From a virus (taxonomy: Duplodnaviria; Caudoviricetes), in IMG/VR virus record IMGVR_UViG_3300049437_000244, positions 1 through 56,435 of that record: a stretch of 56,435 bases of DNA; one strand, given 5' to 3'. The translations under genes were made by a program, and so were the position numbers. Numbering within the stretch: position 1 is the first letter of the stretch; every line of letters begins with the position of its first letter. Shown here piece by piece: positions 47,521-56,132 of this stretch. The notes under the pieces are model-generated. The model saw only the letters and a program-made list of their open reading frames with translations, did no database searches and was not told where the DNA came from.

Positions 47521-49689
47521 ATGAGGAGATGCGCAGGTCCTCAGGAGCTAGGCCAGGCGGCAGCCGAACGACGCCGCCGGGCAGCGCTCCGGACGTTGGC
47601 CCTGGTGGCCGCAGGAACAGCTTCATTGCTGGCCGTTAACTCGCCGCTTCGGGCGGCAGTCGTGGAGCGTGTGGATGTTCGCGAAGCGCTCAACCCCCAT
47701 CGAAGTCTCTACGTTACGTTCTCGGGGCTCGTGCTCGGAACGGCTGGTAGGCCGGTGGCCCAGGCCACTGTCGCGGTCGAAAAGACCACGGTTCTGACGG
47801 ACGCACGAGGCTTCTTCCGTTTGACGGTCCAGAGTCCACCGGAGGGGCGTGAACGGCGATTCGTACTGAGCATCCGCAAAGAGGGATACGGCTTGCTGTC
47901 TCGGGTCTACGACGCGGGAATCGAAAAGGGCCGTTGGATCCTCACCGAGGCCACCACGACGCGCATCGACCCCCGCCAGACGAACGTCATACGGGACACG
48001 AGACGGCTGGTCACGTGCACCGGGACATTGAGCAGTCAGGTCGACTGGTCGGCGTACGAAGAACGGAGACAGCCCCGCCGCATCGATGCGCAGGGTACGT
48101 ACGTCGGCGAAGCATCCAGTGCCGTCAAGAGCGCCATGCTCTTCGCGGAAAATGCCAGAGACTGTAACGAGGGCATTACCCTCTCCATCCCCGCCAACAC
48201 GCTGGTGGATCGCGAGGGCAGGCTCCCCGGTGGCAAGGTCTCGATCACCCTGTCGACCGTGGACATCTACTCTCCCTCGTCGATGCCTGGCGACTATGGA
48301 GTGAGCCTCCCCGACGGGAGCGGGTACATGCTCACTTACGGTGCGGGGACGATCACCGCGACCGCCCAGGGCCGCAGCTATCAGCCGCGAACGGGCGCCG
48401 CCACGACGCTGACCATCCCCGTGAACCGTGCTCAGCTCGGTCACGCGAAGCTACCCGCCGCCGTTCCGCTATTGCTCTACGATGAGGAACGGGGACTCTG
48501 GCGGCAGACCGGTCAGGCCCGATTCGACTCCAAGCAAGGTGCCTTCGTCGCCCAGGTCGAGCACTTCTCGGCATTCAACATGGATCTGGTGAAAACGGAT
48601 CAGGCCTGCGTCCGCGTAGACAGCACAGGCATCACGGATGACTATGATCTCGAGGTCACCGTTCCGTCGGACACAGGTACGGTCGTCCGCACCCACCCAA
48701 TCGACAATACGCCCGAGAAGATCCACGTCGTCTACAACTTGCCGAGTAACACCGACATCGGCCTTCGGGCCCTCCGTTCGCAGGGCATCCTGGTTGTGCC
48801 CGTCTCCGACACCGTCTCCGTCAACACCCATGCGCCACAGTCTCCCGCGACGCCCAACGCTCCTGCCTATCCGTATGACATCTGCAACGGTAAGGCCGTC
48901 ATCTCGCAGCGCCCGCTCGCCCCCGTCCTCAGCGGTCCGGCGACATCGACCGGCACATTCGTGCTCCATTGGGAGTACCACTGGGCAGGACTCGCCAGCA
49001 ACAGCGACGGGTTCATCCTCGAGGAATCGAATTCCTCTTCAAGCAGTGGCTTCTCCGTGCTCGCTTCGACCGTGAACCAGAATGACCACCGAGCCGCTGT
49101 GGACTATCAGGTCGCAAAGACGGTGAATGGAACGTACTGGTACCGAGTCCGCGCGAAGACCGCGATGGGCTACTCGCCCGACAGCAACATCGCGGAGGTT
49201 CTCGTCGACACCGGTAACCAGACGCCTATGCCGACGACGCTGAGAATCCACAATGACCTCTACGGGGCAGGCGACTGGGACATGTGGAACGGACTGATAC
49301 GTGTCCGCATTGCAACAACCTGCGAGGCGGCAATGGCCGGAGCCGGCGAGCGTCTCTTCCCTTACGAGTCGACGACCGATGTGGCGAACCTGGAGCGAAT
49401 CGCCCCGAACGAGACCCGGGATTATGACGTGAGCACGGTGCAGCTCGCCTCCGGAAATACCTACTGCCTCTTCATCCAGGCCGGTTGGTGGGACTACTTC
49501 TGTTTCGGTTCCTGCGCTTGGACCAAGCATGACACGGAGGTCATAGGCTGCCACGGACAAGTCGACACCAAGTCCGCGCCAGTCAGGATCGAAAGACCGT
49601 TCCGCGATCCCGAGTACATCAGGGTGAGCGATTTCCTACCGAACCTCTCGAGCTGGGAAGGACATCCCGGGTGCGCATATAGGCCTTGA
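47521..49689 (+). CDS. Secreted multi-domain beta-sandwich protein (carboxypeptidase-regulatory-like + FN3-like), moron
   Basis: Signal peptide, G.V....GRPVAQATV...TDARGFF, VEHFSAFNMD, YWYRVRA. Opposite strand to the neighbouring genes. Confidence 0.75.
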   Translation: MRRCAGPQELGQAAAERRRRAALRTLALVAAGTASLLAVNSPLRAAVVERVDVREALNPHRSLYVTFSGLVLGTAGRPVAQATVAVEKTTVLTDARGFFRLTVQSPPEGRERRFVLSIRKEGYGLLSRVYDAGIEKGRWILTEATTTRIDPRQTNVIRDTRRLVTCTGTLSSQVDWSAYEERRQPRRIDAQGTYVGEASSAVKSAMLFAENARDCNEGITLSIPANTLVDREGRLPGGKVSITLSTVDIYSPSSMPGDYGVSLPDGSGYMLTYGAGTITATAQGRSYQPRTGAATTLTIPVNRAQLGHAKLPAAVPLLLYDEERGLWRQTGQARFDSKQGAFVAQVEHFSAFNMDLVKTDQACVRVDSTGITDDYDLEVTVPSDTGTVVRTHPIDNTPEKIHVVYNLPSNTDIGLRALRSQGILVVPVSDTVSVNTHAPQSPATPNAPAYPYDICNGKAVISQRPLAPVLSGPATSTGTFVLHWEYHWAGLASNSDGFILEESNSSSSSGFSVLASTVNQNDHRAAVDYQVAKTVNGTYWYRVRAKTAMGYSPDSNIAEVLVDTGNQTPMPTTLRIHNDLYGAGDWDMWNGLIRVRIATTCEAAMAGAGERLFPYESTTDVANLERIAPNETRDYDVSTVQLASGNTYCLFIQAGWWDYFCFGSCAWTKHDTEVIGCHGQVDTKSAPVRIERPFRDPEYIRVSDFLPNLSSWEGHPGCAYRP

Positions 49690-50072
49690 CTTCGTCTGAC
49701 AACGGACTTGAGCGGTCCGGTCGTCCCGGTCGCTTGACTCTTTCCTCCTAGACCACCCAGAGTCCGCGCTGATCTCTTCGGGGTGAGCTCCGGCGGCCTC
49801 GAGGCCGTTCTGAGGTTCGCTGTGCTTGGGCACGCGCCGCACATATTGGCCGGTGGCCGCGCGACGGCTATAGGCCCAGGCCAACCCGGACGCACCCCTC
49901 AGCGATGAGCTGGCGGCGCTCGCTGGCCACGCCCCAGGGGTTGGCGGGCTAGACGGCGGAGTCGAGGGAATGAACCAAGCGGGCGGGGTCCTCGCTGATG
50001 CGAGCCGCCGCCATCTTAGCCCTCTCCTACAAGCGGCGCCGACCTCGCATAGGCCCTGCCCCGGATTGCCCG

Positions 50073-51341
50073 TCACTCCTCTTGCCGGACGACACGATCA
50101 TTCTTCGATCGCTCGCGCGCAAATTCGTGGGAGATTCGGGCTGAGGAAATTCCCTGAAGAACCACGTAGGCGGACATCAATGGGCTGCGGAAGCGGAACC
50201 TGAACCGGTGCTTCGCCCCTGTCTTCTGAAGCACCGACGCACGGCTCGCCTCACAGAACTCCTTAATGTGTCGCGCGAAACTAGGAATATCGAGGGTTCT
50301 GCCCGTGATCTTACGGAGAGGATCTCTCACACCTGCTGCCTGGAAGTAACCCAGGTCATCGGACTCAGCGAGTGCACACGCCAGTAGAACGTCCGGATAG
50401 AGGCTTGCCTTCTTGGGGCTGCTCACGGCACGTACGTAGTCCTTCCGAACAGACTGCTGCGCGTCCTGGATGGCCTTCTCGACAGCGCGGTCTACATGGC
50501 CGGTATTACAGACCTCTTCGCCCGCAAGGATCGCTGCTGTTGCGGAGTTTAGACCGAGGAGGTGCGTGAAATGAGGGAGACCGACCGAGAGGAAGCAGAC
50601 CTGGTCTGCCGCGTCTGGTTCAATCCTCATCCCGAGTCTTGAGAATCCCCTTTCGAGAATTTCAGATAGCTCTTGCGTTGACATTCTTGGCATCTGCACC
50701 TGTACGAGCGCTCGCTCCACTGACTGATGTTCCGCGATGAGTTCCTCGACGGTATCCGCAACGCCGACCAGCATCAGCATCGCGCTTACGCCAAGATCGG
50801 AGAGGATCTTGATGGTATCGGCGAAGAGCCGCCTATCCCTTGAGGCAGAAATCCGATCGAACTCGTCGATGATCACGAGTACCACGAGCGCTTGGGACGA
50901 GAGCGATTCAAGCGCTCGTCGCACGTCGTCCGGCGATATCACATCTGGCAACAGGTCGAGAATCGGGACCTTCGCGGGAACAGGCGGCTTCGACTCAAAG
51001 CCCACTGGAGTCGGCTGCTGCTGGAGGACGTGGATGCTCGAAAAGACCTTTCGCCAGACAGACGAAAAGGTGTCGCTCGAATCACAGACGACATGCGGTG
51101 CTATGGTGTTCGCCCGGCTGAACACCCCCCTCACGATGTTCGCGAGGGAGGTCTTTCCGACCCCTCGCTCGCCATAGACGATGACGTGCCTACCTCTCTG
51201 CATCAGGGTATCGACGACGGTCTGCAGCTTCTCGACTCGTCCCGCAAACAACGCCTGTTCGTTCACGGGAGCCGCCGGAGTGAAAACCCTTCCCGCTTCC
51301 ATTCGTTTCTTGATGATCTCGTCGTTGTCGCTCATGCGCAT
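50073..51341 (-). CDS. AAA+ / STAND-like ATPase (Cdc6/Orc1-like fold), moron
   Basis: FAGR, Walker A YGERGVGKTS, Walker B VIIDEFD, GLPH. Visibly lower GC. Confidence 0.8.
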   Translation of the reverse strand: MRMSDNDEIIKKRMEAGRVFTPAAPVNEQALFAGRVEKLQTVVDTLMQRGRHVIVYGERGVGKTSLANIVRGVFSRANTIAPHVVCDSSDTFSSVWRKVFSSIHVLQQQPTPVGFESKPPVPAKVPILDLLPDVISPDDVRRALESLSSQALVVLVIIDEFDRISASRDRRLFADTIKILSDLGVSAMLMLVGVADTVEELIAEHQSVERALVQVQMPRMSTQELSEILERGFSRLGMRIEPDAADQVCFLSVGLPHFTHLLGLNSATAAILAGEEVCNTGHVDRAVEKAIQDAQQSVRKDYVRAVSSPKKASLYPDVLLACALAESDDLGYFQAAGVRDPLRKITGRTLDIPSFARHIKEFCEASRASVLQKTGAKHRFRFRFRSPLMSAYVVLQGISSARISHEFARERSKNDRVVRQEE

Positions 51342-51430
51342 ACTATACAGTGAGTCGCGCAACTTGCGAGCTTATTAGCGCTACCGTGCACAACACTTGT
51401 GTGCGGTCCGCCTCGAAATCCGATCGATCA

Positions 51431-52150
51431 CTACCTCACCGCCACCCACCCCGCGAAGTTGAACCACCGCCAGAAGCACTCCACCCGCGAGAACCCGGCC
51501 TCGCGGAGTAGCTCCTCGTTCCACTTCGCCGTCACCGGCACGAGCACCCCCTCGAGCGAGAGCGCCTTCCGGAGGATCGCCTCTTCCGAGTAGCCGTTCG
51601 CCTTCTTCAACTCGCGGTAGAGCTTCACGAACAGCGCGTCGAGCTCGGCGTTCGGGACGAGGATCTTCTCCACAAGGATCAGCGCTCCTCCCGGGGCCGT
51701 CGCCTCGAACATCCGCCTCACGATGTGAGGCCGGTGCTCGATCGGCGTGAACTGGAGGGTCAGCACCGACAGCGTCACCGAGGCCCGGACCGGCGGGTAC
51801 TCGTTCCGGAGGTCGAGGTCCTGGACCCGCATGATCCCCGCCTCGATCCACCCGCAGAACCGCTCGCGGACGGCCTCGAGCATTGGCCTCGAGGTGTCCA
51901 CAAGAACGAACTGGTTTCGGGCCCCGAAGCGGTCCACGAATGGCGCGATGCCCTCCCCTCTCGAGCAGCCTACGTCCACGATCGAAGTCGCCTTCTGGAC
52001 GAAGCGCGCGCCCATGTCGAAGACCGCGCTCCTCATCCCGCGGTAGTCCGGGACGGAGCGCTGGAGCATGTCGTCGAAGGCGTCCGTCACCTTCCGATCG
52101 AAAGCCCACCTGCCCTCGGGCATCGTCTGGTCGATCACGTTCTCGGCCAT
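51431..52150 (-). CDS. cmoA: CmoA-like carboxy-S-adenosylmethionine synthase
   Basis: WAFD..V...FDDMLQRSVP.Y, DVGCSRG, LTLQF, PGGALILVEK, KKANGYSE and WFNF all match CmoA. Confidence 0.85.
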   Translation of the reverse strand: MAENVIDQTMPEGRWAFDRKVTDAFDDMLQRSVPDYRGMRSAVFDMGARFVQKATSIVDVGCSRGEGIAPFVDRFGARNQFVLVDTSRPMLEAVRERFCGWIEAGIMRVQDLDLRNEYPPVRASVTLSVLTLQFTPIEHRPHIVRRMFEATAPGGALILVEKILVPNAELDALFVKLYRELKKANGYSEEAILRKALSLEGVLVPVTAKWNEELLREAGFSRVECFWRWFNFAGWVAVR

Positions 52151-53250
52151 CAGCTCCTGACCTCCTTCAGAACCTCGTCTCGGATCGTCCTGGCGACGCA
52201 GGCCATCATCACGGGAGGTACCGAGCGCCCGAGGCGCTCCCATTGCTGGTCGTAGGTCCCCGTCAGCTGGAAGTCGTCGGGGAACCCGCTCATCCTCTTC
52301 AACTCGGCGATCGTGAAAGTCCGCGGCACGGCCCAGTGGTAGAGCACCGGCCGCGCCTGCAGCACGGTGTGACTCGGCTTCTCGGGCGAGAGTCGGAAGT
52401 GGGTCATGAACGCCTCGCGCCCATGCCGGCGAAGGAAGGCGCGGCCCAGCCCCATCGTGTCGCCCGGGACCGACTCCTCCCAGAGGAGCCGCGTCATCGT
52501 CCCCTTCGGCAGGATCTTCAGGAGCCTAGTCTTCGAATCTCCCGTGTCCCACCGAAGGTCAGGCGGCGCCAGCCCTTCAAGGGCCTCTCCCATCGAGTAG
52601 CGGTACGGCAGGGGCCGCGGGAAGGCGGGCGGGCGCTCGAGGTCCTCGCGGACCCCCACGAAGATCAGTCGCTGCCTCATCTGCGGTACCCCGAGCCACT
52701 GAGCGTCGAGGAGCCGCGCACCGACGCGGTACCCGCAGCTCCGGAGCTCGGCGAGGATCCGCTTGAAGTAGCCCTTCGCCGTCCCCTTCACGAGGCCCGA
52801 GACGTTCTCGGCGACGAACGCCCGCGGCTGCAAGCCGCGCAGGAGCCGGGCGTACTCGAAGAACAGGTCGTCGACGCGTTGCGACGTCTCGGAGTAGGCC
52901 TTCACCTTCCCCCAGCTCGCCTCGCGCTTCCCCGCCGTGCTGAAGGCCGCGCAGGGAGGGGAGCCGTCGAAGAGGCCGATCTCCCCTTCCCGGAGTCCCG
53001 TCGCCTCGAGGATGTCGGCCGGTCGCACCGTCCGGATGTCGCGGGTGTCGAGGATCGTCCCCGGGTGATTGAGCCGGTAGACCTCCTGAGCCGACTCGAT
53101 GAACTCGGAGGCCCAGGCAACCCGGAAGCCGGCCATCTTGTAGCCGAGCGAGGATCCCCCGCAGCCCGAGAACGTCGACACCACCGTGAGCCCGTTCCAC
53201 GGCAGTTCCGCGATCTCGCGCATGGAGCGGACGCGGTAGGGAGGCCTCAT
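52150..53250 (-). CDS. C5-cytosine DNA methyltransferase fold, predicted carboxymethyltransferase
   Basis: Motif I FSGCGG, IV GSPPCAAFS, VI AENV, VIII PQMRQR, IX ELKRMSGFP, X LGRSVPP (R in place of N). Confidence 0.9.
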   Translation of the reverse strand: MRPPYRVRSMREIAELPWNGLTVVSTFSGCGGSSLGYKMAGFRVAWASEFIESAQEVYRLNHPGTILDTRDIRTVRPADILEATGLREGEIGLFDGSPPCAAFSTAGKREASWGKVKAYSETSQRVDDLFFEYARLLRGLQPRAFVAENVSGLVKGTAKGYFKRILAELRSCGYRVGARLLDAQWLGVPQMRQRLIFVGVREDLERPPAFPRPLPYRYSMGEALEGLAPPDLRWDTGDSKTRLLKILPKGTMTRLLWEESVPGDTMGLGRAFLRRHGREAFMTHFRLSPEKPSHTVLQARPVLYHWAVPRTFTIAELKRMSGFPDDFQLTGTYDQQWERLGRSVPPVMMACVARTIRDEVLKEVRS

Positions 53251-53501
53251 CACGGCTCCCACCTCGCCTTCCCCGTCTCGATCACGGCAGCGATCGCGAA
53301 CTCGACGTCGGGGCCGTACCCGATCGCCCGGCAGAGGATCTCCTCCTCGCGATCGAAGTCCTCGAGGGGGAGCCCGCTCTCGAGCTTCACGGCGCGAATC
53401 CGCCCGACCAGATCGAACCTCCTCCGGAGCCGGACGAAGAGCTCGTCGTCGACGGCGTCGACCGCGTCGCGCAGCTCAGCGAGGCTTTCCGGACCACTCA
53501 T
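53250..53501 (-). CDS. AroQ-type (type II) chorismate mutase
   Basis: LAELRDAVDAVDDEL...RRRFDLV..I..VK...GLPLEDFDREEEIL matches CM_2. ATG at 53501; stop overlaps the methylase ATG. Confidence 0.8.
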   Translation of the reverse strand: MSGPESLAELRDAVDAVDDELFVRLRRRFDLVGRIRAVKLESGLPLEDFDREEEILCRAIGYGPDVEFAIAAVIETGKARWEP

Positions 53502-54012
53502 AGCCGCACATCGGACAGTGGTAGTCGGTCGGGATCGACTGGTCGTACTGGTGGAACTCGGTCGGGGGCGTCGGCTCGGGCTGGGCCTTCGGGTCATCCT
53601 TCGCGCGAGGGACCGGCGGCTCGAGACCGCGGAGCATGTTCCGGACCGCGGCGCTCTGGAACTCGATCCCCTCGAGGAGGGACGCGAAGGCGGTCCCGTC
53701 CCTCTCCGCCATCCCCGCGAGCGGGTCGACCGTCGCGAGGAGCTTGGCGGCTTCATCCTCGGTCACGTCGAGGACGAGGACCGGCACGAGCTGATCCGGG
53801 GTCGTCTCGGCCCGGAGGTGGCCGTCAATGAGCTCGAGGGTCCCGTCCGGGAGCTCGCGCGCCAGTAGGGCGTCGGCGTAGCCCACCTCGGCGAGGACGC
53901 CCTGGAGGGCCTCACGCTGCGCCTTCGGGTGAACGCGCCAGTTCCTCGGATTCGGCCGGAGATCCGCGGCGCGCACACGCCGCAGGTCCTTGATGCGATC
54001 TCTGACTTGCAT
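53476..54012 (-). CDS. ParB/Srx-like N-terminal domain protein with C-terminal Zn ribbon
   Basis: DLRPNPRNWRVH...LIDGHLR; HCPMCGYEW. Confidence 0.85.
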   Translation of the reverse strand: MQVRDRIKDLRRVRAADLRPNPRNWRVHPKAQREALQGVLAEVGYADALLARELPDGTLELIDGHLRAETTPDQLVPVLVLDVTEDEAAKLLATVDPLAGMAERDGTAFASLLEGIEFQSAAVRNMLRGLEPPVPRAKDDPKAQPEPTPPTEFHQYDQSIPTDYHCPMCGYEWSGKPR

Positions 54013-54013
54013 T

Positions 54014-54259
54014 TCAGGCTCCTACTCGCAGGCTTCGTTTCGGGTAGCAGGTGCCGGCGGGACCCACCTCGGTCTCCACGGTCAACGTCCTGTGGCCGCA
54101 GGTGGCGCACCCCCAGAGCCGGAAGAACCGGTCCTCGGCGGGCGTCAGGTCCTCGGCTCCGTCCAGCCACTCCGTCATCGGCGGTGCCACGACCGTCCGG
54201 GGATCCGCCCCCGCCTCGATCGCCCTCTTCTTGCAGGCCGGGCAGCGCGGCCACGCCAT
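54014..54259 (-). CDS. Zn-finger protein (NrdR-N / Ogr-like), possible late regulator
   Basis: CPAC...CATCGHRTLTVE. Confidence 0.55.
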   Translation of the reverse strand: MAWPRCPACKKRAIEAGADPRTVVAPPMTEWLDGAEDLTPAEDRFFRLWGCATCGHRTLTVETEVGPAGTCYPKRSLRVGA

Positions 54260-54849
54260 CAGCGCGGCCCCCCGGCGACGGCGAACAGCGGAAGGTCCTC
54301 CTCCAGGCCTACGACAGCCCGAGAAGGCGCAGGCGGCACCAGGCCGGAGCTCGGCCCGCCCCCGGCGAGCAGCTGGGCCGAGAACCGCTCGAGGCCGGGC
54401 GGAGCCGCGTCGACGACGACGATCGCCCCCGCGGGCTCCCCGTAGACCTTCCCTACCCACTGCTCGACGACCTGCGCGTCGTCGCGCCAGAGGATCCCCG
54501 TGAGGGCGTCCTCGAGGGCACGGAGCAGCTTCGTCGCGTCGGGCTTCGTCGCCGGGTAGGGAGGCGCCGACGGGAGGAGACCCCGCTTCCCGAGGTGCCC
54601 CTTGAGCCGCGGGAAACGGAACAGCACCCGTAGCGAGAGCGGCCCATCGAGGAGTGTCCCCCGGTAGACCTCCCGCGCAGCCGCGACGACCGCCACGCGC
54701 CAGTCCTTGACCCGCGGGTTGGCGTCGCTGACGACCGTCGCCTGGCTGCCGTTCTCCCGGAGCACCGGGGAACCGTCCTTGTGCCGTAGCGGGAAGGCGC
54801 TCTTCGAACCGCCCGGCTGAGGAACGCCGATCACTTCGAATCGAATCAC
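54259..54849 (-). CDS. rusA: RusA-family Holliday junction resolvase
   Basis: G.PQPGGSK, KPDATKLLRALEDALTGILWRDDAQVV. Confidence 0.9.
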   Translation of the reverse strand: MIRFEVIGVPQPGGSKSAFPLRHKDGSPVLRENGSQATVVSDANPRVKDWRVAVVAAAREVYRGTLLDGPLSLRVLFRFPRLKGHLGKRGLLPSAPPYPATKPDATKLLRALEDALTGILWRDDAQVVEQWVGKVYGEPAGAIVVVDAAPPGLERFSAQLLAGGGPSSGLVPPAPSRAVVGLEEDLPLFAVAGGPR

Positions 54850-56132
54850 GCCGTCACCTCCGCTTCCTCCACGAACTGGATCGGCACCTGGACTCCACAG
54901 GCACGGCACGCCGAGGCGACTACCTCGCCGTATTCCCCTGCCGCGTACCCGAGAAACAGCGGGGCCACGGAGACCCGGAGGACTCCGTTCACCTCGCCGA
55001 CCTGGCGAGTCCCCCGGAACCAGGTCTCGAAGTCGCGTTCGTCGACGAGAGGCCGGAGCTGCTCGAGGACCCGCGGCCAGACGCCGCCCCCAGGTGGTGG
55101 GGGGGCCAGGGCCTCCGTCGGCGCTGCCGCCTTCCGTCGGGGGGCCGGCGGGTGGGCCCCGACGAGGGCGGGGGCCGGCGCCGAGTCCCGGAACGGTCGG
55201 TCGTACCGGCCCTCCTCGATTCGCGTCAGCGAGTCCGGCTTGAGCAGGAAGTCCAGCGTGACCCAGGCCTGCCCTGCGAGGTGCGGAAGTGCCGCGAGGT
55301 GCCGTACGGCGGCCATCCAGCGCTCGAGGTCGGGCACCGCGCGAAGCCGGGCCCTGGCGGCGCGTTCCCGGCCCGGTGGGAGGGCCTTGGCCTCGGGCAA
55401 ACGGCCGCGGTTCGAGTTCCAGACGGCGAGGAGCTGGCGCGGGGAAGGGGGGCGCGGCGCCCCCGCGGCAGTGGGGGTTCCACTCCCCTCTCCTTCCTGC
55501 TCCTGCTCCTGCTCCTGCTCCTGATTCCTGGAACGCTTCCTCGAACCGTTCATGGAATCGCTCCCATCTCCGTTGTCGGAGCCGTTCTCGGACTCGTCCC
55601 CGGAGCCGTTCCCGGAGGGACCACCGGAACCACTCCCGGACGAGTTCTCGGGAGGGTTCTTGGAGCCCTTCCCGGAACCGAACCGGAGACGGCCCCGCTC
55701 GTCCTCCTCCATCCCCAGCTCGAACACTTCCGGGAACCCCGAGGCGTTTCGCAGGACAACCGTCGCTTCGTCGCGGAGGGCGCACTCGGGGATCTCGGCG
55801 ATCGCACGTCGCCAGGCCTTGACCGTGTTCGGGTTCTCCGCGGGGTTGTACTTGACGGCTTTGGGGATCCAGACGACGCGCGCCTGCCAGTCCGCCTTGA
55901 CCATGTCGGCCGTCGAGAGCTCCGCGAAGCACCGACGGAACGCCGGCAGGGGCCAGTCGAGCATCTCCGCCAGGGCTGCTTCGCCAGCCGAAAAGAGGCC
56001 GGGCGCAGCCGTCGTCTGGGGGCCCGTGAGGAGGAACACCCAAAGATACCGAGCGTTCGGCTTCGGGCGCGAAAGGGCGACGAACTTCTCGTCACCCCAC
56101 ATCTTCACGTCGATCTTCCGGTGCCGCGCCAT
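54846..56132 (-). CDS. Phage replication initiator (N-terminal wHTH, C-terminal DnaA_N-like domain)
   Basis: MWGDEKF..LS...LW.FLLT, (EQ)n linker, TLDFLL...RIEEGRYD, W..VL..L.....DFETWF. Confidence 0.8.
   Translation of the reverse strand: MARHRKIDVKMWGDEKFVALSRPKPNARYLWVFLLTGPQTTAAPGLFSAGEAALAEMLDWPLPAFRRCFAELSTADMVKADWQARVVWIPKAVKYNPAENPNTVKAWRRAIAEIPECALRDEATVVLRNASGFPEVFELGMEEDERGRLRFGSGKGSKNPPENSSGSGSGGPSGNGSGDESENGSDNGDGSDSMNGSRKRSRNQEQEQEQEQEGEGSGTPTAAGAPRPPSPRQLLAVWNSNRGRLPEAKALPPGRERAARARLRAVPDLERWMAAVRHLAALPHLAGQAWVTLDFLLKPDSLTRIEEGRYDRPFRDSAPAPALVGAHPPAPRRKAAAPTEALAPPPPGGGVWPRVLEQLRPLVDERDFETWFRGTRQVGEVNGVLRVSVAPLFLGYAAGEYGEVVASACRACGVQVPIQFVEEAEVTA
55531..55684. repeat. Degenerate 12-bp-period repeats inside the initiator gene (candidate iterons/ori)
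   Basis: GAACCGTTCATG, GAGCCGTTCTCG, GAGCCGTTCCCG, GAACCACTCCCG and GAGCCCTTCCCG in 12-bp register. Confidence 0.55.

What the first reader, a model, noticed from the sequence alone, without database searches (positions are those of the whole stretch)
51431..54012. Self-supplying DNA carboxymethylation cassette: chorismate mutase + CmoA + C5-cytosine transferase (+ ParB-like)
Seen: four overlapping minus-strand genes: ParB-like (53476-54012), AroQ chorismate mutase (53250-53501), C5-MTase fold (52150-53250) and CmoA-like (51431-52150). The last three are joined by TGATG overlaps. Established: chorismate mutase makes prephenate; E. coli CmoA makes carboxy-SAM from SAM plus prephenate; a motif-X Asn->Lys C5 MTase (engineered M.MpeI N374K) transfers carboxymethyl from Cx-SAM to give 5-carboxymethylcytosine. 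Inference: the phage encodes the whole route chorismate -> prephenate -> Cx-SAM -> 5cxmC in DNA, tapping the shikimate pathway for a bulky, charged base, probably against restriction. I recall a natural phage CmoA/carboxymethyltransferase pair being reported (to be verified). A dedicated chorismate mutase in a temperate phage cassette is the part I do not recognise as described. No CmoB or tRNA-modification gene is in the window.
Basis: partly seen in the sequence, partly recalled or inferred. Interest (0 to 1): 0.95.

Follow-up and report, generated by a model that had tools for sequence, protein, structure and literature searches.

The report
Phage carboxymethylcytosine operon with chorismate mutase
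A temperate phage carries the enzyme pair published in 2025 for putting carboxymethyl groups on DNA cytosines, plus a tiny chorismate mutase that most likely makes the prephenate this chemistry consumes, an add-on that recurs in other phages and that I could not find in print.

Summary
Four translationally coupled minus-strand genes sit at the stated coordinates: ParB-like, an 83-aa AroQ chorismate mutase (CM), a C5-cytosine transferase and a CmoA homologue.

The transferase is a CmoX-type DNA carboxymethyltransferase. Its best solved relative is SpCmoX (8YF3, E 4e-65), and it keeps the SPPC motif and the motif-X Arg. CmoA+CmoX(+ParB) is already published (Yang et al., Nat Commun 2025, PMC12783734).

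That paper's main text does not contain 'chorismate' or 'mutase', and it names prephenate availability as an open question.

In my survey, 14 of 133 de-duplicated CmoX+CmoA cassettes carry a CM, always inside the cassette. The CM takes two different positions, and cassette GC ranges from 46 to 71%. In three Verrucomicrobiota MAGs, 14 of 14 fetched further mini-CM genes also lie in such cassettes.

The CM keeps R11, R28, K39, D48, R51 and E52, folds as AroQ and models as a dimer. Its helix 3 is short, so Q88/S84 equivalents are unresolved. The window has no CmoY-type ligase, so plain 5cxmC is the predicted product.

All function is inferred. Earlier notes of this scan describe the same CM add-on on other DNA. 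Verdict: a new variant of a known system, of moderate interest.

The parts
53476..54012 (-). ParB-like protein (178 aa) with a C-terminal CPxCGYxWSG zinc-ribbon-like motif; first gene of the cassette
   Evidence: ORF. It matches PHROG 620/723 (ParB-like) at about 1e-8 and has no Pfam hit at E <= 0.01. A homologue stands directly upstream in 110 of 132 surveyed CmoX+CmoA cassettes (69 of 80 viral, 41 of 52 genomic). Yang et al. also report ParBc proteins beside CmoX, with function unknown.
53250..53501 (-). 83-aa AroQ-class chorismate mutase ('mini-CM'), the predicted prephenate supplier
   Evidence: Pfam CM_2 scores 37.9 bits against a cut-off of 27. The protein aligns without gaps to E. coli CM over residues 1-63, with R11, R28, K39, D48, R51 and E52 in place. 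These residues are invariant or nearly so in 17 cassette CMs. The AF2 model has pLDDT 91.5 and three helices. The top Foldseek hits are AroQ mutases, TM 0.75-0.84. The homodimer model scores 0.83 against 0.02 for the best control.
52150..53250 (-). CmoX-type DNA cytosine C5-carboxymethyltransferase (366 aa)
   Evidence: Pfam DNA_methylase scores 1.2e-52. The best PDB match is 8YF3 SpCmoX at 4.2e-65. SPPC is kept, and 'ERLGRSVPP' aligns to SpCmoX 'ERVGRMVPP', which holds Arg350. All 129 surveyed homologues have SPPC and Arg at this position; none has GN(S/A)(V/I).
51431..52150 (-). CmoA-type carboxy-SAM synthase (239 aa)
   Evidence: Full-length matches to H. influenzae YecO (1IM8, 1.5e-34) and E. 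coli CmoA (4GEK, 7e-33). TIGR00740 scores 157.6 bits; the experimentally active phage SpCmoA scores 115.6. PHROG 4752 scores 1.9e-72.

Best explanation
This is a four-gene lytic-cycle operon of a temperate tailed phage that most likely converts cytosines in phage DNA to 5-carboxymethylcytosine and makes its own cofactor precursor.

Proposed steps:
1. The 83-aa AroQ dimer rearranges host chorismate to prephenate.
2. The CmoA homologue uses prephenate and SAM to make carboxy-SAM.
3. The CmoX-type C5 transferase attacks C6 with the Cys of SPPC. Its motif-X Arg holds the cofactor carboxylate, and it transfers the carboxymethyl group to C5 of target cytosines.
4. The ParB-like protein is a conserved partner of unknown role, perhaps DNA loading.

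No CmoY-type amide ligase is present, so 5cxmC itself should be the end product.

The CM is an optional booster. It gives an unfused source of prephenate, presumably free of feedback control. The surveyed host genomes carry their best-scoring CM_2 domain inside long, probably bifunctional proteins. Genome-wide modification of many progeny genomes would need one prephenate per modified base.

Shown here: the genes, motifs, folds and the recurrent gene linkage. Inferred: every activity, the product, the target sequence, and the benefit against restriction.
For: CmoX identity:
- The best solved relative is SpCmoX 8YF3 (4.2e-65), with SPPC and the Arg350 equivalent kept.
- Yang et al. show that wild-type SpCmoX accepts only Cx-SAM and that R350N accepts neither cofactor.

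CmoA identity:
- Full-length homology to the solved CmoA/YecO structures.
- It scores higher on TIGR00740 (157.6 bits) than the biochemically active SpCmoA (115.6 bits).
- The missing Arg199 is also missing in SpCmoA (Glu) and in two other phage CmoAs.

CM identity:
- Pfam CM_2 above its cut-off.
- R11, R28, K39, D48, R51 and E52 are aligned without gaps to EcCM. The active-site list comes from PMC5526877.
- R11, D18, R28, D48, R51 and E52 are invariant in 17 cassette CMs whose pairwise identity ranges from 20 to 62%.
- AF2 pLDDT 91.5. The top 34 listed Foldseek hits are AroQ mutases or PchB.
- The dimer model scores 0.83 against a best control of 0.02. That mark was reached by 20 of 30 proteins solved as pairs and 1 of 23 solved as single chains. 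The runs agree in at least 95% of contacts, and partner pLDDT is at least 86. AroQ dimers are solved, so this pass may be from memory.

Linkage:
- PF01817 was found in 7 of 156 CmoA- or CmoX-seeded IMG/VR records.
- 14 of 133 de-duplicated CmoX+CmoA cassettes carry a CM. Every CM lies inside the cassette: 12 between ParB and CmoX, and 2 directly after CmoA, one of these with a GTGA overlap.
- 14 of 14 fetched further short CM genes in three Verrucomicrobiota MAGs lie in such cassettes.
- Median dN/dS is 0.22 over 65 pairs.

Context:
- TGATG coupling of the genes.
- No CmoB in the record.
- Yang et al. name prephenate availability as an open issue.
Against: - No activity, cofactor or modified base was measured for any protein of this cassette or of any CM-bearing cassette.
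- 119 of 133 cassettes work without a CM, so it is dispensable.
- In vitro, CM could be left out of a chorismate-CmoA cascade because the spontaneous rearrangement sufficed (Herbert et al. 2020, PMC7496830).
- The CM matches only positions 1-59 of the 80-position Pfam profile.
- hhalign stops at residue 63, so equivalents of EcCM Ser84 and Gln88 cannot be assigned.
- The CmoA homologue is below NCBI's equivalog cut-off and has Ala where E. coli CmoA has the carboxylate-binding Arg199.
- The host is unknown and the record is 74% complete. Host CM status and a ligase elsewhere in the phage cannot be fully excluded.
- CM-less cassettes occur in Verrucomicrobiota genomes with the same kind of long-frame host CM. 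Host CM type therefore does not explain which phages carry the gene.
Confidence: 0.66

Rival explanations
1. The 83-aa protein is not an autonomous chorismate mutase. With its short helix 3 it would be weak on its own and need a partner (CmoA, CmoX or a host protein) to complete or activate the site. Alternatively it does a related pericyclic reaction, such as a PchB-like isochorismate-pyruvate lyase.
For: Only profile positions 1-59 of 80 match. Helix 3 cannot be aligned to EcCM, so Ser84/Gln88 equivalents are unassigned. Many cassette CMs end about 26-30 residues after Glu52. [quoted passage not shown] MtCM and PchB chains are among the fold matches. The CM is translationally coupled to CmoX or CmoA.
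Against: Six of the seven EcCM active-site residues listed in PMC5526877 are kept and conserved across 17 divergent copies. Three cassette CMs (L085, L113, L158) match CM_2 to profile position 76-77. BsCM_2 also has Gly at the Ser84 position. No binding to CmoA or CmoX was tested.
Confidence: 0.13
2. The main job of CM plus CmoA is to drain the host's SAM, and perhaps chorismate, as a counter-defence or metabolic takeover. DNA carboxymethylation would be secondary.
For: Yang et al. themselves ask whether CmoA-mediated SAM depletion affects SAM-dependent defences. A prephenate booster would speed SAM consumption.
Against: In 14 of 14 CM-bearing cassettes, and in 13 of the 14 fetched Verrucomicrobiota copies, the CM comes with both CmoX and CmoA. 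All 129 CmoX homologues keep the Cx-SAM-binding Arg. This fits a cofactor made for use, not for waste.
Confidence: 0.08
3. The transferase is an ordinary 5-methylcytosine methylase or acts on another substrate (host DNA in the lysogen, or RNA). The CmoA-like protein would make a different SAM derivative.
For: Arg199 of E. coli CmoA is replaced by Ala. The CmoA homologue is below the TIGR00740 cut-off. The target sequence is unknown. The phage is temperate.
Against: The validated SpCmoA has the same deviations. SpCmoX, with the same Arg, rejects SAM. No homologue in the set has the canonical Asn. No CmoB is present. The cassette lies on the minus strand between the replication gene (54846-56132) and the packaging genes further downstream on that strand; an nSTAND-type NTPase gene, a plus-strand 722-aa ORF and a 222-aa ORF lie between the cassette and TerL.
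Confidence: 0.08

Closest known systems
CmoA-CmoX-CmoY system of Synechococcus phage S-B43 (Yang et al., Nat Commun 2025, PMC12783734; CmoX structure 8YF3)
   Same: It has a CmoA homologue next to a C5-MTase homologue with SPPC and the Arg at HhaI Asn304, and a ParB-type neighbour. The predicted chemistry is SAM + prephenate -> Cx-SAM -> 5cxmC.
   Different: The window adds a chorismate mutase. 'Chorismate' and 'mutase' occur 0 times in that paper's main text; its supplements could not be opened. The window lacks the CmoY ligase. It sits in a temperate 68% GC phage, not a lytic cyanophage. CmoX identity is about 36-39%.
Streptomyces phage TurkishDelight cassette (closest cultured phage; annotated only)
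   Same: ParB-like, CmoX homologue (55% identity) and CmoA homologue in one row.
   Different: It has a glutamine-amidotransferase ligase between CmoX and CmoA, and no CM is annotated. The local CM search also found none in that locus.
E. coli CmoA/CmoB tRNA cmo5U pathway
   Same: The same cofactor synthase family (31% identity, full length) and the same use of prephenate.
   Different: The acceptor enzyme is a DNA C5 transferase, not CmoB (none in the window). Arg199 is not kept.
In vitro chorismate mutase + CmoA + methyltransferase cascade (Herbert et al. 2020, PMC7496830)
   Same: The same three-step logic was designed on the bench: chorismate -> prephenate -> cxSAM -> carboxymethylated product.
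   Different: It is artificial and has small-molecule acceptors. CM proved dispensable there.
AroQ chorismate mutases: EcCM (1ECM), P. furiosus 1YBZ, T. thermophilus 2D8D, M. tuberculosis MtCM (2W1A)
   Same: The three-helix fold (TM 0.75-0.84) and the residues R11', R28, K39, D48, R51 and E52.
   Different: It is 83 aa with a short helix 3. No Ser84/Gln88 equivalent can be aligned. It is encoded in a phage DNA-modification operon, not in aromatic amino-acid synthesis.

Membership tests
CmoX (DNA cytosine C5-carboxymethyltransferase, Yang et al. 2025) | 'SPPC' catalytic motif (S95-C98 of SpCmoX) | tested here: met
   The window has 'DGSPPCAAFS', aligned to SpCmoX 'DGSPPCSAFS'. The motif is invariant in A5 and present in 129 of 129 homologues.
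CmoX (DNA cytosine C5-carboxymethyltransferase, Yang et al. 2025) | Arg at the position of HhaI Asn304 / SpCmoX Arg350 (binds the Cx-SAM carboxylate) | tested here: met
   'ERLGRSVPP' aligns to 8YF3 'ERVGRMVPP'. None of the 129 homologues has GN(S/A)(V/I).
CmoX (DNA cytosine C5-carboxymethyltransferase, Yang et al. 2025) | C5-MTase fold with the ENV Glu and QxRxR Arg | tested here: met
   Pfam DNA_methylase scores 1.2e-52 over profile positions 2-322 of 324. E148, R192 and R194 are invariant in A5.
CmoX (DNA cytosine C5-carboxymethyltransferase, Yang et al. 2025) | Transfers carboxymethyl from Cx-SAM and rejects SAM | not testable with these tools
   This needs an enzyme assay or nucleoside LC-MS.
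CmoA (carboxy-SAM synthase) | Full-length homology to solved CmoA/YecO | tested here: met
   1IM8 at 1.5e-34 (query 13-239) and 4GEK at 7.3e-33.
CmoA (carboxy-SAM synthase) | NCBIfam TIGR00740 equivalog cut-off (193.3 bits) | tested here: not met
   The window protein scores 157.6 bits. As a control, the biochemically active SpCmoA scores 115.6 and E. coli CmoA 455.3. The cut-off therefore excludes a proven phage enzyme too.
CmoA (carboxy-SAM synthase) | Arg199 salt bridge to the cofactor carboxylate (E. coli; PMC3663124) | tested here: not met
   The column holds Ala in the window, Glu in SpCmoA, Ala in TurkishDelight and Glu in Mcat8. The neighbouring Lys198 is invariant. The role of Arg199 is described.
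CmoA (carboxy-SAM synthase) | SAM-binding residues Tyr39, Asp62, Gly64, Asp89, Asp117 and Glu164 (E. coli numbering; PMC3663124) | tested here: met
   Y39, D62 and G64 are invariant in A2. The window also has D at the Asp89 and Asp117 columns and E at the Glu164 column (read from the alignment).
AroQ chorismate mutase (Pfam CM_2) | Pfam gathering score | tested here: met
   37.9 bits against 27, but only profile positions 1-59 of 80. The genome search gives 37 bits.
AroQ chorismate mutase (Pfam CM_2) | Active-site residues Arg11', Arg28, Lys39, Asp48, Arg51 and Glu52 (EcCM) | tested here: met
   Alignments to 1ECM and to E. coli PheA residues 1-63 are ungapped. The residue list is from PMC5526877. 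Conservation is seen in 17 cassette CMs.
AroQ chorismate mutase (Pfam CM_2) | Helix-3 residues Ser84 and Gln88 | tested here: inconclusive
   hhalign ends at residue 63. The model has a helix 64-79, but no residue-level match could be made. Candidates are G77/T76 and E82/W81/R80.
AroQ chorismate mutase (Pfam CM_2) | Three-helix fold forming an intertwined homodimer | tested here: met
   AF2 pLDDT is 91.5 and Foldseek TM to AroQ structures is 0.75-0.84. The dimer model scores 0.83 against a best control of 0.02. That mark was reached by 20 of 30 solved pairs and 1 of 23 single chains. The pass may come from likeness to solved AroQ dimers.
ParB N-terminal domain (Pfam PF02195) | Pfam match | tested here: not met
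   No Pfam family matches at E <= 0.01. Only the PHROG ParB-like families 620/723 match, at about 1e-8.

The most novel reading that the evidence does not exclude
The short 'mini-AroQ' mutases (about 80-100 aa, helix 3 cut short) would be a dedicated, repeatedly recruited accessory of phage carboxy-SAM cassettes. They would be a first case of a phage auxiliary metabolic gene that taps the shikimate pathway solely to feed a DNA-modification cofactor. Their role would be to bypass the host's fused, feedback-controlled chorismate mutase, and they may be completed or activated by CmoA or CmoX in a channelling complex. On the CmoX tree the trait needs at least 4 gains or losses.
Probability: 0.25. 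Interest if true: 0.7.

Novelty: new variant of a known kind. Interest (0 to 1): 0.55.

Why it matters
The authors who discovered natural 5cxmC wrote that prephenate availability in different hosts needs investigation. The CM-bearing cassettes suggest that some phages solve this themselves. That makes the question testable: same cassette, with and without CM, under Phe/Tyr repletion.

If the window's CmoX had the GC specificity of SpCmoX, the 5,994 GpC sites would mean about 12,000 prephenate molecules per genome copy (the specificity is an assumption).

A compact three-gene set running from chorismate to carboxymethylated DNA could also serve as a tool for orthogonal DNA labelling in hosts that lack CmoA.

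Tried and rejected
CmoA-CM fusion. I first read the L016 chorismate mutase as fused to CmoA, because the open frame is 331 aa. Reading the DNA showed two genes in different frames joined by a GTGA overlap.

Hidden CMs. CM-less cassettes with a ParB-to-CmoX gap of 150 nt or more might have hidden a divergent CM. Unfiltered hmmsearch of the gap ORFs of 17 CM-less cassettes, plus the ParB-CmoX gap of L016, gave nothing better than E 0.6.

Single or multiple origin. The question could not be settled. On the CmoX FastTree the CM label needs 10 changes, of which 4 are forced by starred branches; the shuffled mean is 13.5 and 1 of 500 shuffles is as low. On the CM tree (15 cassette CMs and 21 cellular CMs; I left out one short Streptomyces row), one clade is not rejected (p-AU 0.37) and most forks are unsupported. 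By BLASTP, cassette CMs outside the Verrucomicrobiota group are about as close to cellular CMs as to each other.

Host CM type as an explanation for CM carriage was rejected. In 17 of 18 cassette-bearing genomes the best CM_2 match lies in a 226-515-aa open frame, whether or not the cassette has a CM.

Cultured phages. tblastn with three cassette CMs against 50,697 phage records found no match for two queries. The third found one weak match (E 1e-3) in an unannotated 4.3-kb faecal 'Bacteriophage sp.' record. tblastn with 83-100-aa queries is insensitive.

Close relatives. The 5.8-billion-protein search found only three full-length relatives of the window's CM (80-89% identity) and one 46-aa fragment.

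Promoters and terminators. The consensus scan gave nothing above shuffles.

Host of the window. It was not identified. The window's CmoX sits on an unresolved branch.

Not done: a complex job for CM with CmoA or CmoX, a full census of IMG/VR, and any look at sequencing reads.

Literature. These searches found no paper linking the CM to the system:
- 'chorismate mutase' + CmoA + phage: 0 papers.
- 'chorismate mutase' with Cx-SAM, cxSAM or carboxy-SAM: tRNA papers and the in vitro cascade paper (PMC7496830, opened). The one 2026 row holding both 'chorismate mutase' and 'carboxy-SAM' (PMC13185646, an EHEC tRNA-reprogramming paper) was seen in the listing only.
- 5cxmC + chorismate: no paper with both terms heads the list (that search was badly set, with min_terms 1).
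- CmoX: one relevant paper.


Full report
OBSERVATION.
- The CM stop and the transferase start share a TGATG at 53250.
- The transferase stop and the CmoA start share a TGATG at 52150.
- The CM start at 53501 lies 26 nt inside the ParB-like gene.

The window is the whole of an IMG/VR provirus record of 56,435 b, estimated 74% complete. It has an integrase at 1-1122, terminase large subunit, portal, protease, major head protein, a tail protein and a DnaD/O-like replication gene just upstream of the cassette. It is therefore a temperate tailed phage. No host genome is available.

THE TRANSFERASE IS A CmoX. Pfam DNA_methylase matches at 1.2e-52. Against all PDB sequences the best hit by far is 8YF3 (4.2e-65; next HaeIII at 8e-23). 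That entry is the Synechococcus phage S-B43 enzyme named CmoX by Yang et al. (Nat Commun 2025, PMC12783734). I read its abstract and sections 10, 13 and 14.

That paper defines candidate CmoX by the SPPC motif and Arg350, which replaces HhaI Asn304 and contacts the Cx-SAM carboxymethyl group. It reports that wild-type SpCmoX accepts only Cx-SAM and that R350N accepts neither cofactor. The window protein has DGSPPC, and its ERLGRSVPP aligns to ERVGRMVPP. In 129 homologues from my survey, all have SPPC and Arg at that position, and none has the canonical Gly-Asn.

THE CmoA HOMOLOGUE. It aligns over its full length to H. influenzae YecO (1.5e-34) and E. coli CmoA (7e-33).

- It scores 157.6 bits on TIGR00740, below the 193.3-bit equivalog cut-off. 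The biochemically active SpCmoA scores only 115.6, and E. coli CmoA scores 455.
- E. coli Arg199 salt-bridges the cofactor carboxylate (PMC3663124, passages read). It is Ala in the window. The same column is Glu in SpCmoA, Ala in phage TurkishDelight and Glu in phage Mcat8, while Lys198 is invariant.

The deviations are thus those of a proven phage Cx-SAM synthase. They lower the claim only a little.

THE CHORISMATE MUTASE. Pfam CM_2 is met (37.9 bits against 27), but only over profile positions 1-59 of 80. Alignments to 1ECM and to E. coli PheA residues 1-63 are ungapped, so numbering is shared. R11, R28, K39, D48, R51 and E52 are all present. These are six of the seven charged EcCM active-site residues listed in PMC5526877.

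In an alignment of 17 cassette CMs, which are 27-89% identical to the window's, R11, D18, R28, D48, R51 and E52 are invariant. K39, D15 and R58 are nearly invariant.

AlphaFold2 with this alignment gives pLDDT 91.5 and helices 7-41, 49-60 and 64-79. The top 34 listed Foldseek matches are AroQ mutases or the related PchB, with TM 0.75-0.84 over 73-83 columns for the top 15. E-values are only about 5e-3 because the protein is small.

A two-copy model scored 0.83, with the best of 3 controls at 0.02. That mark was reached by 20 of 30 proteins solved as pairs and 1 of 23 solved as single chains. The runs agree in at least 95% of contacts, and partner pLDDT is at least 86. AroQ dimers are solved, so this pass may be from memory.

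One point is unresolved. Helix 3 is short and cannot be aligned to EcCM, so equivalents of Ser84 and Gln88 are not assigned. BsCM_2 also has Gly at the Ser84 position.

IS THE CM LINKED TO SUCH PAIRS ELSEWHERE?

- A CmoA alignment retrieved the best 80 of at least 508 IMG/VR relatives. A CmoX alignment retrieved the best 80 of at least 555, of which 76 were new records.
- Pfam CM_2, searched over the whole records, was found in 2 of 80 and 5 of 76. One more record was found by a CM-seeded scan.
- A CmoX-seeded scan of 185,579 species genomes kept 80 of 123 relatives.

I mapped CmoA, CmoX, ParB, three ligase queries and a CM profile on all loci and then removed duplicates. This left 80 viral and 52 genomic cassettes with both CmoX and CmoA. 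Seven and six of them, respectively, carry a CM. With the window, that is 14 of 133.

Every CM lies inside the cassette:
- 9 are ParB-CM-CmoX-CmoA, like the window.
- 3 are ParB-CM-CmoX-ligase-CmoA.
- 1 is ParB-CmoX-ligase-CmoA-CM, with a GTGA overlap between CmoA and CM.
- 1 is ParB-CmoX-CmoA-CM.

The viral CM-bearing loci and the window span 46-71% GC; the genomic ones are 60-66% GC. A truncated contig (L225) adds ParB-CM-CmoX.

The six genomic CM-bearing cassettes are in Verrucomicrobiota MAGs. In three of these genomes CM_2 found 15 further short matches besides the long housekeeping frames. I fetched 14 of them. All 14 lie next to ParB and CmoX homologues, and 13 also have CmoA. One (L264) has CmoX in pieces. 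Two of the 14 re-fetch the already counted cassettes L196 and L197. Two short CM matches in a Streptomyces genome are not in cassettes.

Among 12 Verrucomicrobiota copies, median dN/dS is 0.22 (65 pairs, median dS 0.81), so the gene is kept by selection.

Gap ORFs of CM-less cassettes hold no hidden CM. The closest cultured phage, TurkishDelight (CmoX 55% identical), has ParB-ParB-CmoX-amidotransferase-CmoA and no CM.

MECHANISM. The best reading is chorismate -> prephenate (mini-AroQ dimer); prephenate + SAM -> Cx-SAM (CmoA); and Cx-SAM + cytosine -> 5cxmC (CmoX, with the Cys of SPPC as nucleophile and Arg holding the carboxylate).

The window has no Asn_synthase-type ligase and no hit to three ligase queries. 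5cxmC itself, not an amide, should be the product. There is no CmoB.

The CM is optional: 119 of 133 cassettes lack it. In vitro it can be left out because chorismate rearranges spontaneously (PMC7496830). I therefore read it as a booster.

In 17 of 18 cassette-bearing genomes the best CM_2 match lies in a 226-515-aa frame. I infer that these are bifunctional, regulated enzymes; this was not tested. A free phage CM would raise the prephenate pool. If the target were GC, as for SpCmoX (an assumption), the window's 5,994 GpC sites would cost about 12,000 prephenate per genome copy. Host CM type does not, however, separate CM-bearing from CM-less cassettes.

ORIGIN. The CmoX tree scatters the CM-bearing cassettes. 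The label needs 10 changes, at least 4 of them forced by well-supported branches, and 1 of 500 shuffles is as low. The CM tree is too short to resolve, and one clade is not rejected (p-AU 0.37). Repeated gain, loss and transfer between cassettes all remain open.

WHAT IS KNOWN. CmoA-CmoX-CmoY and the ParBc association are published. The main text of that paper holds 'chorismate' and 'mutase' 0 times. Its discussion asks for study of prephenate availability. My searches found no paper linking a phage chorismate mutase to Cx-SAM or 5cxmC. Supplements were closed.

Earlier notes of this scan describe the same CM add-on on other DNA. I did not use them as evidence.

VERDICT. The system is a new variant of a known kind: the published carboxymethylcytosine pathway with its own prephenate supply and without the ligase. 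All biochemistry is inferred.

Noticed in passing
window 47521-51362: A lower-GC island (about 0.60-0.63 against 0.69) lies just downstream of the cassette. It holds a plus-strand 722-aa ORF and a 429-aa STAND-type NTPase (Pfam nSTAND1 1.7e-11; PHROG 6841), perhaps a moron or defence gene.
   Followed up: partly
L029:3266-6723 and most of L019-L072: Of the 80 CmoA-seeded IMG/VR loci, 64 have no CmoX homologue in the fetched flank. In L029, a ParB_N protein and a 530-aa ParB_N-fused protein with an unassigned C-terminal part stand between the ParB-like gene and CmoA, just before the terminase. This may be a different Cx-SAM-using system. Earlier scan notes describe a similar ParB-fused variant.
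   Followed up: partly
G159, G160, G161 (loci L254-L267): Single Verrucomicrobiota MAGs hold four to seven separate ParB-CM-CmoX-CmoA cassettes. This suggests many related prophages, or mixed strains in the bins.
   Followed up: partly
L264:6261-7585: In one Verrucomicrobiota cassette copy, CmoX is split into four pieces and no CmoA was found, while the ParB and CM genes look intact.
   Followed up: no
window 53476-53530 and the ParB-like genes of the surveyed cassettes: The ParB-like proteins end in a conserved Cys motif, H/QxCPxCGYxWSG. It is seen in the window, L016, L085 and all nine gap translations printed. It looks like a zinc ribbon specific to this cassette family.
   Followed up: no
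gap ORFs of L186, L202, L213 (upstream of CmoX): Several CM-less cassettes have N-terminal extensions of CmoX with a repeated 'D(L/V)EPCP(T/V)(V/I)' motif of unknown meaning.
   Followed up: no
window 54014-54460: A 148-aa ORF with CxxC...CxxC motifs lies between the ParB-like gene and the replication gene. It has no family match.
   Followed up: no
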